A DNA stretch of 64,000 bases, taken from the NCBI RefSeq assembly GCF_009914755.1, contig NC_060927.1, one strand, 5' to 3'. The translations under genes were made by a program, and so were the position numbers. Of the stretch, positions 25,880-41,235 are shown in pieces (position 1 is the first letter of the stretch; the number at the start of each line of letters is the position of its first letter). The notes under the pieces were generated by a model. That model had not been told where the DNA came from and made no database searches. It worked only from the letters and a program-made list of their open reading frames with translations. Source of the DNA: the human T2T-CHM13v2.0 reference genome, Homo sapiens.

Positions 25880-28283
25880 TCTTTGTAGATTCTGGATATT
25901 AGCCCTTTGTCAGATGAGTAGATTGCAAAAATTTTCTCCCATTCTGTAGGTTGCCTGTTCACTCTGATGGTAGTTTCTTTTGCTGTGTAGAAGCTCTTTA
26001 GTTTAATTAGATCCCATTTGTCAATTTTGGCTTTTGTTGCCATTGCTTTTGGTGTTTTAGACATGAAGTCCTTGCCCATGCCTATGTCCTGAATGGTATT
26101 GCCTAGGTTTTCTTCTAGGGTTTTTATGGTTTTAGGTCTAACATTTACATCTTTAATCCATCTTGAATTATTTTTTGTATAATGTGTAAGGAAGGGATCC
26201 AGTTTCAGCTTTCTACATATGGCTATCCAGTTTTCCCAGCACCATTTATTAAATAGGGATTCGTTTCCCCATTTCTTGTTTTCGTGAGGTTTGTCAAAGA
26301 TCGGATGGTTGTAGATATGCGGCATTATTTCTGAGGGCACTGTTCTGTTCCATTGGTCTATATCTCTGTTTTGGTACCAGTACCATGCTGTTTTGGTTAC
26401 TGTAGCCTTGTAGTATAGTTTGAAGTGAGGTAGAGTGATGCCTCCAGCTTTGTTCTTTTGGCTTAGGATTGACTTGGCAATGCAGGCTGTTTTGGTTCCA
26501 TGTGAACTTTGAAGTAGTTTTTTTCCAATTGTGTGAAGAAAGTCATTGGTAGCTTGATGGGGATGGCATTGAATCGATAAATTACCTTGGGCAGTATGGC
26601 CATTTTCACGATATTGATCCTTCCTATTCATGGGCATGGAATGTTCTTCAATTTGTTTGTGTCCTCTTTTATTTCATTGAACAGTGATTTGTAGTTCTCC
26701 TTGAAGAGGTCCTTCACATCCCTTGTAAGTTGGATTCCTAGGTATTTTATTCTCTTTGAAGCAATTGTGAATGGGAGTTCACTCATGATTTTGCTTTCTG
26801 TTTGTCTGTTATTGGTGTATAAGAAGGCTTGTGATTTTTGCACATTGATTTTGTATCCTGAGACTTTGCTGAAGTTGCTTATCAGATTAAGGAGATTTTG
26901 GGCTGAGACAATGGGGTTTTCTAGATATACAATCATGTCATCTGGAAACAGGGACAATTTGACTTCCTCTTTTCCTAATTGAATACCCATTATTTCTTTC
27001 TCCTGCCTGATTGCCCTGGCCAGAACTTCCAACACTATGTTGAATAGGAGTGGTGAGAAAGGACATCCCTGTCTTGTGCCAGTTTTCCAAGGGAATGCTT
27101 CCAGTTTTTGCCCATTCAGTATGATATTGGCTGTGGGTTTGTCATAAATAGCTATTATTTTGAGATACATCCCATCAATACGTAATTTATTAAGAGTTTT
27201 TATCATGAAGGGCTATTGAATTTTGTCAAAGGCCTTTTCTGCATCTACTGAGATAATCATGTGTTTTTGTCATTGGTTCTGTTTATATGCTGGATTATGT
27301 TTATTGATTTGCATATGTTGAACCAGCCTTGCATCCCAGGGATGAAGCCCACTTGATCATGGTGGATAAGCTTTTTGATGTGCTGCTGGATACAAATAAC
27401 TCAAACAAATTTACAAGAAAAAAACAAACAATCCTATCAACAAGTGGGCAAAGGATATGAACAGACACTTCTCAAAAGAAGACATTTATGCAGCCAAAAG
27501 ACACGTGAAAAAATGCTCATCATCACTGGCCATCAGAGAAATGCAAATCAAAACCACAATGAGATACCATCTCACACCAGTTAGAATGGCAATCATTAAA
27601 AAGTCAGGAAACAACAGGTGCTGGAGAGGATGTGGAGAAATAGGAATGCTTTTACACTGTTGGTGGGACTGTAAACTAGTTCAACCATTGTGGAAGTCAG
27701 TGTGGCGATTCCTCAGGGATCTAGAACTAGAAATTCCATTTTACCCAGCCATCCCATTACTGGGTATATACCCAAATGATTATAAATCATGCTTCTATAA
27801 AAACACATGCACACGTATGTTTATTGCGGCACTATTCACAATAGCAAAGACTTGGAACCAACCCAAATGTCCATCAATGATAGACTGGATTAAGAAAACA
27901 TGGCACAAATACACCATGGAATACTATGCAGCCATAAAAAAGGATGAGTTCATGTCCCTTGTAGGGACATGGATGAAGCTGGAAACCATCATTCTCAGCA
28001 AACTATCGCAAGGACAAAAAACCAAACACCACATGTTCTCACTCATAGGTGGGAATTGAACAATGAGAACACTTAGACACAGGAAGGGGAACATCACACA
28101 CCGGGGCCTGTTGTGGGGTGGGGGCCTGGGGGACGGATAGCATTAGGAGATATACCTAATGTAAATGACGAGTTAACAGGTGCAGCACACCAACATGGCA
28201 CATGTATACATATGTAACAAACCTGCACCTTGTGCACATGTACCCTAAAACTTAAAGTATAATAAAAAATAAATAAATAAATA
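25880..28283 (+). mobile_element. L1PA5-like LINE-1, 5'-inverted (twin-primed)
   Basis: Antisense ORF2 (RT region, LFPDDM) 25880-27391, then sense ORF2 C-terminus, 3' UTR and A-rich tail. Degenerate TSD aaaagcacataaat (25866-25879) / aaaagcacttgaat (28284-28297). About 9-nt duplication (tacaaagaa) at the inversion point. Confidence 0.93.
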
Positions 28284-28553
28284 AAAAGCACTTGAATGTG
28301 CCCAAGGCAAGGAGAGGAAACCTTCTCCATGTTATCAAACAAAAGAGCTTCCTCTGTAGGGAAGAAAAGTTGTTTTTAGGTATAATAAGTTTTGCTTTCT
28401 AAGAGTGTTTAAAACATTAACAGAAGAACTTTATTTTTACTGGGTTGGGTAGTAACTTAGGAGAGAAAGGAAATTGGAAAGAAGTCTGTTCTGAATGCTG
28501 GTAGCCCTTTAGGATCCCAGATGAGAGGTGAGGGTTCTCCAGAGAAACAAGAT

Positions 28554-38734: not shown

Positions 38735-41235
38735 ACAGTGGCTTTGGAGAGAGACGGAACATGGATTCTGATTCCTGTTCTGATGCATGTTGTCCATGCA
38801 ACTGTGGGCCAATTCTCAACTTACTGGGCTTCCACTTCTTTGAATTACAGAACCAACGACAAAAACCACATGATTATCTCAATAGACGCAGAAAAGGCCT
38901 TTGACAAAGTTCAACAGCCCTTCATGCTAAAAACTCTCAATAAATTAAGTATTGATGGGACGTATCTCAAAATATTAAGAGCTATCTATGACAAACCCAC
39001 AGCCAGTATCATACTGAATGGGCAAAAACTGGAAGCATTCCCTTTGAAAACTGGCACAAGACAGGGATGCCCTTTCTCACCACTCCTATTCAACATAGTG
39101 TTGGAAGTTATGGCCAGGGTAATCAGGCAGGAGAAGGAAATAAAGGGTATACAATTAGGAAAAGAGGAAGTCAAATTGTCCCTGTTTGCAGATGACATGA
39201 TTGTATATCTAGAAAACCCCATCGTCTCAGCCCAAAATCTCCTTAAGCTGATAGGCAACTTCAGCAAAGTCTGAAGATAGAAAATCAATGTACAAAAATC
39301 ACAAGCATTCTTATACACCAATAACAGACAAACAGAGAGCCAAATCATGAGTGAACTCCCATTCACAATTGCTTCAAAGAGAATAAAATACCTAGGAATC
39401 TAACTTACAAGGGATGTGAAGGACCTCTTCGAGGAGAACTACAAACCACTGCTCAATGAAATAAAAGAGGATACAAACAAATGAAAGAACATTCCATGCT
39501 CATGGGTAGGAAGAATCAATATCGTGAAAATGGCCATACTGCCCAAGGTAATTTATCGATTCAATGCCATCCCCATCAAGCTACCAATGACTTTCTTCAC
39601 ACAATTGGAAAAAACTACTTTAAACTTCATATGGAACCAAAAAAGAGCCCACATTGCCAAGTCAATCCTAAGCCAAAAGAACAAAGCTGGAGGCATCATG
39701 CTACCTGACTTCAAACTGTAACAGAAGGCTACAGTAACCAAAACAGCATGGTACTGGTACCAAAACAGAGATATAGACCAATGGAACAGAACAGAGCCCT
39801 CAGAAATAATACCACATATCTACAACTATCTGATTTTTGACAAACCTGACAAAAACAAGATATGGGGAAAGGATACCCTATTTAATAAATGGTGCTGGGA
39901 AAACTGGATAGCCATAGGTAGAAAGCTGAAACTGGATCCCTTCCTTACACCTTATGCAAAAATTAATTCAAGATGGATTAAAGACTTAAATGTTAGACCT
40001 AAAACCATAAAAACCCTAGAAGAAAACCTAGGCAATACCATTCAGGACATAGGCATGGGCAAGGACTTCATGTCTAAAACACCAAAAGCAATGGCAACAA
40101 AAGCCAAAATTGACAAATGGGATCTAATTAAACTAAAGAGCTTCTACACAGCAAAAGAAACTACCATCAGAGTGAACAGGCAACCTACAGAATGGGAGAA
40201 AATTTTTGCAATCTACTTATCTGACAAAGGGCTAATATCCAGAATCTACAATGAACTCAAACAAATTTACAAGAAAAAAAACAACCCCATCAACAAGTGG
40301 GCAAAGGATATGAACAGACACTTCTCAAAAGAAGACATTTATGCAACCAAAAAACACATGAAAAAGTGCTCATCATCACTGGCCATCAGAGAAATGCTAA
40401 TCAAAACCACAATGAGATACCATCTCACACCAGTTAGAATGGCAATCATTAAAAAGTCAGGAGACAACAGGTGCTGGAGAGGATGTGGAGAAATAGGAAC
40501 ACTTTTACACTGTTGGTGGGACTGTAAACTAGTTCAACCATTGTGGAAGTCAGTGTGGCGATTCCTCAGGGATCTAGAACTAGAAATACCATTAGACCCA
40601 GCCATCCCATTACTGGGTATATACCCAAAGGATTATAAATCATGCTGCTATAAAGACACATGCACACGTATGTTTATTGTGGCACTATTCAGAATAGCAA
40701 AGACTTGGAACCCACCGAAATGTCCAACAATGATAGACTGGATTAAGAAAATGTGGCACATATACACCATGGAATACTATGCAGCCATAAAAAATGATGA
40801 GTTCATGTCCTTTGTCGGGACTTGGATGAAGCTAGAAACCATCATTCTCAGCAAACTATCGCAAGGACAAAAAACCAAACACTGCATGTTCTCACTCATA
40901 GGTGGGAATTAAACAATGAGAACACTTGGACACAGGAAGGGGAACATCAGACACCAGGGCCTGTTGTGGGGTGGGGGGAGGGATAGCATTAGGAGATATA
41001 CCTAATGTGAAATGACGAGTTAATGGGTGCAGCACACTAACATGGCACATGTATACATATGTAACAAACCTGCACATTGTGCACATGTACCCTAAAACTT
41101 AAAGTATAATAAAAAATGAGATAATGATACCTTCCTTTTACTATGATAGTGAAGATTAAAAGGAGAAAATGTACTTGAAGTACTGAATACAGTGCCTAGA
41201 ACATCAGAAACCCTTAATAAGGGTTAGTTTTTATT
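38735..41235 (+). mobile_element. MIR split by the L1PA insertion (halves about 38735-38846 and 41112-41235)
   Basis: ggctttggagagagac...gggccaattctcaac left of the L1; aaaatgagataatgatacc...gaagattaaa...acagtgcctagaaca right of it. Confidence 0.7.
38847..41115 (+). mobile_element. L1PA4/5-like LINE-1, 5'-truncated in ORF2 RT
   Basis: [11 protein letters not shown] motif; stops at 39272 and 39482; C-terminus ...FSLIGGN, 3' UTR, short A tail; no TSD visible. Confidence 0.95.

What the first reader, a model, noticed from the sequence alone, without database searches (positions are those of the whole stretch)
25917..40217. Patchy sequence homogenisation between two oppositely oriented L1PA copies about 12-14 kb apart
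Seen: the inverted half of the twin-primed L1 (25880-27391, minus) and the sense L1 at 38847-41115 differ at many positions, e.g. gagaaagaaata vs gagaaggaaata and gctatttatg vs gctatctatg. Yet they are letter-for-letter identical over 231 bp (25917-26147 vs 39987-40217) and over 100 bp (26519-26618 vs 39515-39614). They also share at least five alleles that differ from the L1PA consensus as I recall it: ttatCgattc, cacaCaattgg, ttctAcacag (KSFYTAKE for KSFCTAKE), ccctTtctcacc (GCPFSP for GCPLSP) and ctggAtagcc. Inference: repeated short-tract non-allelic gene conversion, promoted because twin priming created a 1.4-kb inverted repeat. The concordant TSDs and collinear MIR halves show the intervening DNA is in ancestral orientation, so exchange was non-crossover or toggled an even number of times.
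Basis: partly seen in the sequence, partly recalled or inferred. Interest (0 to 1): 0.8.

Follow-up and report, generated by a model that had tools for sequence, protein, structure and literature searches.

The report
Gene conversion between neighbouring inverted L1s
Two old L1 retrotransposon fragments lying about 12 kb apart in opposite orientation on human chromosome 3 have copied short stretches of sequence from one to the other, which is a well-supported example of an already known process.

Summary
The inverted arm (A, 25880-27391) of a twin-primed L1 and the sense L1 (B, 38847-41117) are about 94-95% identical overall. They are letter-for-letter identical over 231 bp and over 100 bp.

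A run of 231 bp is not expected: 0 of 261 dispersed pairs of similar divergence reach it, and permutation P ranges from 5e-6 to 2e-3. The two-transversion haplotype 39557C+39602C occurs in A and B only, against 6042 copies with the majority haplotype.

A and B are not siblings. They differ at five linked subfamily-diagnostic sites. B has its own sibling on chr12, which shares 39074T, 39120T and 39557C. That points to B as the donor of the 100-bp patch.

The TSDs of the twin-primed element are still in direct orientation, so there has been no net inversion.

My verdict is non-allelic, non-crossover gene conversion between nearby inverted L1 copies, with confidence about 0.8. Two of the five shared alleles (39074T, 39908A) may be chance. 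The number of events is not resolved, and no outgroup or population data were available. This kind of exchange is known for Alu and L1, so interest is modest.

The parts
25866..25879 (+). Left target-site duplication of the twin-primed L1 (T)
   Evidence: Local alignment of the flanks gives 12 of 14 matches to 28284-28297, directly abutting the L1 ends.
25880..27391 (-). Inverted arm (A) of the twin-primed L1. It covers the same ORF2 stretch as B 38847-40255, plus 109 bp further 5'.
   Evidence: Alignment to B, inverted repeat arms, blastn at 94.3% over 1410 bp.
27392..28283 (+). Direct 3' arm of the twin-primed L1, with an A-rich tail
   Evidence: Aligns to B from about 40247 to 41117. It overlaps the inverted arm by about 8-9 L1 bases, and both arms carry 40252A.
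28284..28297 (+). Right target-site duplication of T. It is in direct orientation relative to the left copy.
38847..41117 (+). Sense L1PA fragment (B). It is 5'-truncated and has a short degenerate A-rich tail up to about 41130.
   Evidence: The TSD is weak or inconclusive.
39987..40217 (+). 231-bp tract of B identical to A 25917-26147 (reverse complement). It carries the shared minority allele 40146A (A coordinate 25988).
   Evidence: A and B each differ from the sample majority at only that one site, where dispersed copies differ at 1-9 sites (mean 4.4).
25917..26147 (-). The partner of the 231-bp tract in the inverted arm
39515..39614 (+). 100-bp tract of B identical to A 26519-26618 (reverse complement). 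It carries 39557C and 39602C (A coordinates 26576 and 26531).
   Evidence: The haplotype is found genome-wide in A and B only, against 6042 copies with the majority haplotype.
26519..26618 (-). The partner of the 100-bp tract in the inverted arm
39876..39916 (+). 41-bp identical island holding the shared allele 39908A (A coordinate 26226). This could be a micro-tract or a coincidence.
   Evidence: The allele is in 4 of 53 dispersed copies and in the third L1 of the window.
39071..39109 (+). 39-bp identical island holding the shared allele 39074T (A coordinate 27059). This could be a micro-tract or a coincidence.
   Evidence: There are 136 exact carriers genome-wide. The island is bounded by 39070T, which A shares with L053, L015 and L052, and by B's own 39110A, with the B-lineage allele 39120T 10 bp further on.

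Best explanation
Two separate L1PA insertions lie 11.6-13 kb apart. T is a twin-primed element, and its 5' arm (A) is inverted. B is a later 5'-truncated sense copy from a slightly younger stage of the L1PA lineage. B belongs to a tiny sub-lineage marked by 39074T, 39120T and 39557C, and has one sibling on chr12.

After both had inserted, DNA repair or meiotic recombination used one copy as template for the other without a crossover. This is non-allelic gene conversion between inverted repeats on the same chromosome.

At least two patches were transferred. The first is 46-100 bp at B 39515-39614 and was most likely copied from B into A. The second is at least 231 bp at B 39987-40217, with direction unknown. 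The second patch is young: zero differences in 231 bp puts it in roughly the last quarter of B's residence time. Two further single-allele islands, at 39074 and 39908, may be micro-patches or coincidences.

Shown: the identical tracts, the rarity of the shared alleles, the different source stages of A and B, and the unchanged orientation of T's TSDs.

Inferred: the repair mechanism, the donor direction, the timing, and whether there was one event or several.
For: 1. Exact identity over 231 bp and 100 bp inside an alignment with 84 mismatch columns out of 1415.

2. Null for the run length. 0 of 261 dispersed pairs with 70-95 mismatches reach 231 bp (maximum 220), and 5 of 861 of all pairs do. 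0 of 861 pairs are identical over this particular tract. The tract is not a mutational cold spot: dispersed copies differ from the majority at 1.94 sites per 100 bp there, against 1.5-2.9 elsewhere. Permutation P values are 5e-6, 1.75e-3, and at most 1.5e-4.

3. A and B share 5 alleles carried by at most 4 of 53 dispersed copies. B shares at most 3 such alleles with any dispersed copy. Only 4 of 1378 dispersed pairs share 4 or more.

4. Genome-wide counts. 39557C+39602C occurs in A and B only, against 6042 copies with the majority haplotype. The single alleles are at background level, with 20, 60 and 136 exact carriers. None of the 8 other 39557C carriers examined has 39602C, 39908A or 40146A.

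5. A and B come from different sources. A has the SA allele and B the SB allele at 38986, 39136, 39472, 39506 and 40252. Each of these sites separates 8 SA-type from 38 SB-type copies. 40252A is present in both arms of T, so it came from T's template RNA.

6. Polarity. 39074T+39120T is found in B and one chr12 copy only. That copy is SB-type and also has 39557C. A lacks 39120T.

7. No crossover. T's TSD copies are in direct orientation, although one of them lies between A and B.

8. The process is documented. Conversion between neighbouring Alus acts within about 10 kb (passages in PMC6598467 and PMC8230782). Conversion between L1PA3 copies and inversion between inverted L1PA7 copies have been reported (passages in PMC5829575).
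Against: - Overall A-B identity (94.2% over B 39400-40260) is no higher than that of A or B with dispersed copies. Neither copy is among the other's 40 best genome hits. Outside the two tracts the divergence is about 7.7% (83 of 1083 columns).
- One dispersed copy (L053) also shares 5 'rare' alleles with A by the sample criterion. That statistic alone therefore gives only about 1 in 53.
- The B-chr12 pair shows that a genome-unique rare haplotype can arise by common descent.
- The islands around 39074 and 39908 (at most 39 and 41 bp) are shorter than usual conversion tracts. Both alleles are frequent enough to coincide by chance.
- No rare allele is shared in the 870-bp direct-oriented 3' part. 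This is not significant: P about 0.09, my calculation.
- The pair was picked post hoc from a very large scan.
- Recombination between sequences 5-6% diverged is normally suppressed by mismatch repair (general knowledge, not tested here).
- No orthologue, population or read-level data could be examined.
Confidence: 0.8

Rival explanations
1. Common descent. A and B were both copied from the same rare source lineage, which already carried the shared alleles. The long identical run would then be luck.
For: Such tiny sub-lineages exist. B and a chr12 copy uniquely share 39074T+39120T, plus 39557C. A shares 5 sample-rare alleles with L053. T and B have nearly the same 5' truncation point, 109 bp apart.
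Against: - A and B differ at five linked diagnostic sites that separate 8 SA-type from 38 SB-type copies.
- A lacks the B-lineage allele 39120T.
- No third copy carries 39557C+39602C.
- Two siblings of a two-member lineage landing 12 kb apart is very unlikely for L1 (inference).
- The 231-bp run stays unexplained.
Confidence: 0.07
2. Pure chance. Parallel mutations occurred at five sites, and a stretch of 231 bp happened to stay free of mutations in both copies. The pattern was noticed post hoc in a very large scan.
For: - The single alleles are at ordinary background frequencies: 20, 60 and 136 exact carriers, and 4 of 53 for the other two.
- A shares on average about 0.8 rare alleles with any dispersed copy.
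- Some dispersed pairs do reach 231 bp (5 of 861).
Against: - The joint chance of 39557C and 39602C in a given neighbour is about 0.003 x 0.01. This is my estimate.
- Run-length P is between 5e-6 and 2e-3, and this evidence is largely independent of the shared alleles.
- 3 of the 5 shared changes are transversions.
Confidence: 0.05
3. Assembly or polishing artefact. Reads of one copy were used to correct the other.
For: None from the calls made here.
Against: The identical tracts are embedded in copies that differ at 84 of 1415 columns and lie 12 kb apart, which long accurate reads separate easily (general knowledge). The patches are short and carry minority alleles rather than looking like collapsed sequence.
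Confidence: 0.02
4. A variant of the main reading. A single recombination event produced a long heteroduplex (about 39074 to 40217) that was repaired in patches. This would replace several separate events.
For: The shared alleles and identical islands are interleaved with unconverted diagnostic and private differences over 1.15 kb. The stretch between the two main tracts is 8.9% divergent (33 of 372 columns).
Against: The 231-bp tract has no differences, while the small islands are tightly bounded by older lineage alleles. That is also compatible with events of different age. Nothing here dates the patches separately.
Confidence: 0.35

Closest known systems
Non-allelic gene conversion between neighbouring Alu elements (Aleshin and Zhi 2010, as described in passages of PMC6598467 and PMC8230782)
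   Same: Short patches of non-diagnostic (private) mutations are shared between independently inserted retroelements that lie close together. The effect is reported within about 10 kb and falls with distance. Here the copies are 11.6-13 kb apart.
   Different: The elements here are 1.4-kb L1 ORF2 fragments rather than 300-bp Alus, and they are in inverted orientation. This is a single locus, not a genome-wide statistic. I saw only citing passages, not the original paper.
L1-L1 conversion and inverted-L1-mediated inversion in human long-read surveys (PMC5829575, passages; PMC3961182, passages and a table row for HsInv0341 with L1PA3 inverted repeats)
   Same: Homologous recombination between L1PA copies. 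Conversion between L1PA3 copies is reported, as is inversion flanked by oppositely oriented L1PA7 copies with associated conversion.
   Different: Here there is no net inversion. The arms are shorter (1.4 kb) and more diverged (about 5-6%) than the 6.2-kb L1PA3 arms of HsInv0341. The events here are fixed in the reference rather than seen as variants.
Arm-to-arm gene conversion in palindromes and inverted segmental duplications (recalled general knowledge, from no call)
   Same: Intrachromosomal, non-crossover exchange between inverted repeats separated by a spacer.
   Different: Palindrome arms stay more than 99.9% identical through frequent conversion. Here only about 330 of 1415 bp are homogenised and the rest has diverged freely.

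Membership tests
Non-allelic (interlocus) gene conversion between dispersed repeats | The two copies are independent paralogues, not one duplicated locus or siblings from one source | tested here: met
   T has its own TSD. Only the L1 parts are repeated between the two loci. A and B differ at five linked subfamily-diagnostic sites. B's TSD is inconclusive.
Non-allelic (interlocus) gene conversion between dispersed repeats | An identity tract significantly longer than the background divergence allows (GENECONV-type test) | tested here: met
   The run is 231 bp. 0 of 261 comparable dispersed pairs reach it. P is 5e-6 (uniform), 1.75e-3 (polymorphic sites only), and at most 1.5e-4 (weighted by variability). 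The 100-bp tract is not significant by length alone, since the median longest run among dispersed pairs is 109 bp.
Non-allelic (interlocus) gene conversion between dispersed repeats | Shared derived alleles inside the tracts that other family members lack | tested here: met
   39557C+39602C occurs genome-wide in A and B only, against 6042 majority haplotypes. 40146A is in 4 of 53 dispersed copies.
Non-allelic (interlocus) gene conversion between dispersed repeats | The pre-conversion state is visible in orthologous loci of outgroup species or in other haplotypes | not testable with these tools
   No primate or other human assembly could be reached. Only the window's own genome could be searched.
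Non-allelic (interlocus) gene conversion between dispersed repeats | Non-crossover outcome: the flanking and intervening DNA keep their arrangement | tested here: met
   T's two TSD copies (25866-25879 and 28284-28297) are in direct orientation, although the right one lies between A and B. An even number of crossovers cannot be excluded.
Twin-primed L1 insertion | An inverted 5' segment joined to a direct 3' segment. The two are contiguous in L1 coordinates with a small overlap or gap, have one poly(A) tail, and are flanked by one TSD. | tested here: met
   The inverted arm corresponds to B 38847-109 through 40255. The direct arm runs from about 40247 to the 3' end, with an A-rich tail. The TSD matches at 12 of 14 positions. 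40252A is present in both arms.

The most novel reading that the evidence does not exclude
The exchange may not be confined to this pair. L1 copies across a stretch of about 0.8 Mb of this gene desert could trade single-site or short patches. Five of the 60 exact genome-wide carriers of 39602C lie within chr3 25.997-26.762 Mb. They are A, B and three further copies that are only 90-92% identical to one another.

Alternatively, or in addition, the inverted A/B pair now holds a 231-bp perfect match and could be a site of recurrent, possibly polymorphic, inversion of the 11.6-kb spacer.
Probability: 0.08. Interest if true: 0.55.

Novelty: new member of a known kind. Interest (0 to 1): 0.3.

Why it matters
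This is a clean single-locus case in which the donor lineage, the recipient background and the patch limits can all be read from the sequence.

- Short conversions can move private mutations between old L1 fragments of different subfamily stage. That slightly corrupts subfamily calls and divergence-based ages.
- Such conversions create perfect-identity blocks (231 bp here) inside otherwise diverged inverted repeats. These blocks could in turn seed inversion by homologous recombination.
- The search method used here could be run genome-wide for L1, as has been done for Alu. It looks for genome-unique haplotypes of rare alleles shared by neighbouring copies and uses siblings elsewhere to set the polarity.

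No gene or known functional element is affected.

Tried and rejected
- A variability-weighted placement test first gave P = 0.039. Its weights counted the end gaps of 5'-truncated copies as variation. Recomputed from the 42 full-length copies, it gives 5e-5, 1.5e-4 and 0 of 20000 for three pseudocounts.
- A first script for the shared-rare-allele null timed out and was rewritten.
- Direct 3' arm of T against B: no rare shared allele and no unusual run. There are 21 private differences in T and 21 in B, by my count from the listing.
- The third L1PA copy of the window (10742-12272) served as a local control. It shares only 39908A with A and B, and 41024C with T.
- The regional clustering of 39602C carriers was followed up in part. 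The chr4 cluster is three segmental-duplication copies (98.0-98.8% identical). The chr3 carriers are not (90-92%).
- A TSD for B: no exact match of 7 or more bases, and only a weak match with a gap.
- A literature search for an inversion at this locus (LRRC3B + inversion + inverted repeats) found 0 papers. A search on twin priming + gene conversion + LINE-1 listed 6 papers, none about this locus judging by title and abstract.
- Subfamily names (L1PA4, L1PA5) could not be assigned, because no Dfam or RepeatMasker library is at hand. 'SA' and 'SB' are my own labels from the sample.
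Full report
**What is there.** The window is T2T-CHM13 chr3:26722001-26786000. It holds two L1PA fragments that matter here.

T (25880-28283) has an inverted arm A (25880-27391, minus strand) and a direct 3' arm (27392-28283, plus strand). 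In L1 coordinates the two arms are contiguous, with an overlap of about 8-9 bases. Both arms carry the same allele, 40252A, in that overlap. T ends in an A-rich tail and is flanked by a 14-bp target-site duplication with 12 of 14 matches (25866-25879 and 28284-28297). This is the canonical twin-priming structure.

B (38847-41117, plus strand) is a 5'-truncated sense copy. It covers the same L1 interval, except for the 109 bp at the 5' end that only A has. I found no convincing TSD for B. Between the two loci, only the L1 parts are repeated.

**The observation.** The reverse complements of 25917-26147 and 26519-26618 are exactly equal to 39987-40217 (231 bp) and 39515-39614 (100 bp). The whole A-B alignment has 84 mismatch or gap columns out of 1415.

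**The comparison sample.** I fetched the 30 best loci from each of two searches of the window's own genome, one with an 861-bp piece of B and one with the matching piece of A. Each search scored 40 of about 7700-8400 candidates. I dropped the window's own two loci and five loci that were the same places found twice. That left 53 dispersed copies, which I aligned with A and B. The sample is therefore enriched for the closest relatives of A and of B.

**A and B are not especially close overall.** Neither is among the other's 40 best hits. B's best dispersed hits are 96-97% identical and A's are 95%, while A against B over the same stretch is 94.2%.

**Shared minority alleles.** Against the sample majority, A and B share six alleles:
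- 38917G is common (15 of 46).
- 39074T is in 0 of 47.
- 39557C is in 0 of 53.
- 39602C is in 2 of 53.
- 39908A is in 4 of 53.
- 40146A is in 4 of 53.

No sampled copy carries more than one of the five rare alleles.

As an empirical null I counted shared alleles that at most 4 other copies carry. A-B gives 5. A against the 53 copies gives 0, 1, 2, 3 and 5 shared alleles in 24, 20, 7, 1 and 1 copies. B against the 53 copies gives at most 3. Among 1378 dispersed pairs, only 4 share 4 or more. Three of those four belong to one tight trio. The one copy that equals the A-B value (L053) shares mostly transitions and one hypervariable site with A. It shows that this statistic alone is noisy.

**Genome-wide counts.**
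- The haplotype 39557C+39602C, two transversions 45 bp apart, occurs in A and B only.
- The majority haplotype, with the same flanks, occurs 6042 times.
- Singly, 39557C has 20 exact carriers, 39602C has 60 and 39074T has 136. These are ordinary levels for recurrent private mutations.
- Of the 8 other 39557C carriers fetched, none has 39602C, 39908A or 40146A.
- 39908A+40146A occurs in A, B and four much older L1 copies that are 79.5-89.2% identical to B.

**The identical run.** Runs of 231 bp or more occur in 5 of 861 pairs among the 42 full-length sampled copies. They occur in 0 of 261 pairs with 70-95 mismatches, where the maximum is 220. A or B against those 42 copies reaches at most 185 and 213 bp. 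No pair is identical over this particular tract.

Dispersed copies differ from the majority at 1-9 sites in the tract (mean 4.4). A and B each differ at one site, and it is the same site. The tract is not a cold spot, with 1.94 differences per 100 bp per copy against 1.5-2.9 elsewhere.

Permutation gives P = 5e-6 with uniform placement and 1.75e-3 over polymorphic sites only. Weighting by site variability gives 5e-5, 1.5e-4 and 0 of 20000 for three pseudocounts. A first version of that last test gave 0.039 because end gaps inflated the weights.

The 100-bp tract is not remarkable by length alone. Its weight comes from the two rare alleles it carries. The 372 bp between the two tracts are 8.9% divergent.

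**A and B do not come from one source.** Several non-CpG polymorphisms in the sample are linked. They split it into 8 'SA' copies, 38 'SB' copies and 7 intermediates, which I set aside. These labels are my own.

A has the SA allele and B the SB allele at 38986, 39136, 39472, 39506 and 40252. Both have the same allele at 38917, 39817, 40351, 40926 and 41095. The pattern fits two successive stages of a single evolving L1PA lineage, with T earlier and B later. It does not fit one shared source.

The rare shared alleles are interleaved with these differences. 39074 lies between 38986 and 39136. The other four lie between 39506 and 40252.

In the direct-oriented 3' part (about 870 bp), T and B share only common polymorphisms and no rare allele. 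By my count of the listing, T and B each have 21 private differences there.

**Polarity.** One chr12 copy (L079) is SB-type and 95.7% identical to B. It carries 39074T, 39120T and 39557C. The haplotype 39074T+39120T occurs genome-wide only in B and this copy.

B therefore has a sibling on another chromosome, and these three alleles most likely came with B's template. A has 39074T and 39557C but not 39120T. The simplest reading is that the 39515-39614 patch was copied from B into A. It would have carried the lineage allele 39557C and B's private 39602C together.

The same pair is also a caution, because a genome-unique rare haplotype can arise by descent.

The direction of the 231-bp patch cannot be read from the sequence.

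The islands around 39074 (at most 39 bp) and 39908 (at most 41 bp) are very short, and both alleles are frequent enough to coincide by chance. 39908A is also in the third L1 of the window.

**Orientation.** T's right TSD copy lies between A and B. A single crossover between A and B would have inverted it relative to the left copy. Both copies are in direct orientation, so the exchange left no net inversion.

**Timing (inference).** B has 29 private differences in 1414 bp and A has about 50 events. From those rates, about 11-12 differences would accumulate in 231 bp over B's whole residence time. Seeing none puts the 231-bp conversion in roughly the last quarter of that time (95% bound). The estimate is biased by my having picked the longest run.

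**Comparison with what is known.** I read passages of four papers.
- PMC6598467 and PMC8230782 state that non-allelic conversion between Alu copies is elevated within about 10 kb.
- PMC3961182 lists a validated inversion between 6.2-kb inverted L1PA3 copies and notes that mammalian tracts are usually a few hundred bp.

The present case is a further instance of that kind. I found nothing in print on this locus. Supplementary tables of inversion and conversion catalogues were not searched and could list it.

**Open points.**
- Whether there was one event with patchy repair or several events.
- The direction of the 231-bp patch.
- The age and possible polymorphism of the patches.
- Read-level confirmation.
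- An unexplained regional excess of 39602C carriers on chr3.

**Verdict.** The feature is real and conversion is well supported (confidence about 0.8). It belongs to a known kind, and interest is modest (0.3).

Noticed in passing
G000:C3 25997380, 26128596, 26243185 (loci L082, L081, L080), 0.5-0.77 Mb upstream of the window: Three more of the 60 exact genome-wide carriers of the rare allele 39602C lie in the same 0.77-Mb stretch as A and B. They are only 90-92% identical to one another, are of different subfamily type, and carry none of the other A/B alleles. L081 and L082 share six sample-rare alleles, so they probably belong to one older subfamily. The regional excess is unexplained.
   Followed up: partly
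G000:C4 12324033, 12632616, 12887741 (L083-L085): Another regional cluster of 39602C carriers consists of three copies that are 98.0-98.8% identical. These are segmental-duplication copies, so part of the clustering is mundane. The clusters on C11 63.06-63.43 Mb and C23 122.4-123.4 Mb were not examined.
   Followed up: partly
G000:C12:100599150-100600450 (L079): This is a sibling of B on chr12. It is SB-type and 95.7% identical to B. It is the only other copy in the genome with 39074T+39120T, and it also has 39557C.
   Followed up: yes
window 8790-12299: A third L1PA copy. 10742-12272 aligns in sense to B 39587-41108 at 93.9%. The stretch from about 8795 to 9494 matches L1 sequence of other loci in reverse orientation, so this may be another inverted or twin-primed insertion. 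It carries 39908A, but T at 39602 and G at 40146.
   Followed up: partly
window 38829-38843 and 41131-41146; tail 41118-41130: B has only a short, degenerate A-rich tail and no convincing target-site duplication. The best flank match scores 7 and contains a gap. Either the TSD is badly decayed or the insertion is atypical.
   Followed up: partly
loci L043 (C11:90.89 Mb), L050 (C23:71.54 Mb), L055 (C7:113.29 Mb): Three L1 copies on different chromosomes share 10-11 sample-rare alleles pairwise. One pair in the sample has only 9 mismatches, probably within this trio, though I did not check which pair. They look like a tight young sub-lineage.
   Followed up: no
loci L013 and L028: These two dispersed L1 copies also align to B in two pieces of opposite orientation, so they look like inverted or twin-primed insertions too.
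   Followed up: no
window 28546-28619 and 35700-35749: Two (GT)n microsatellites lie in the spacer between the L1 copies.
   Followed up: no
window 33646-34268, 56882-57649, 58539-59743, 60357-60585: Older L1 fragments, 68-74% identical to B.
   Followed up: no
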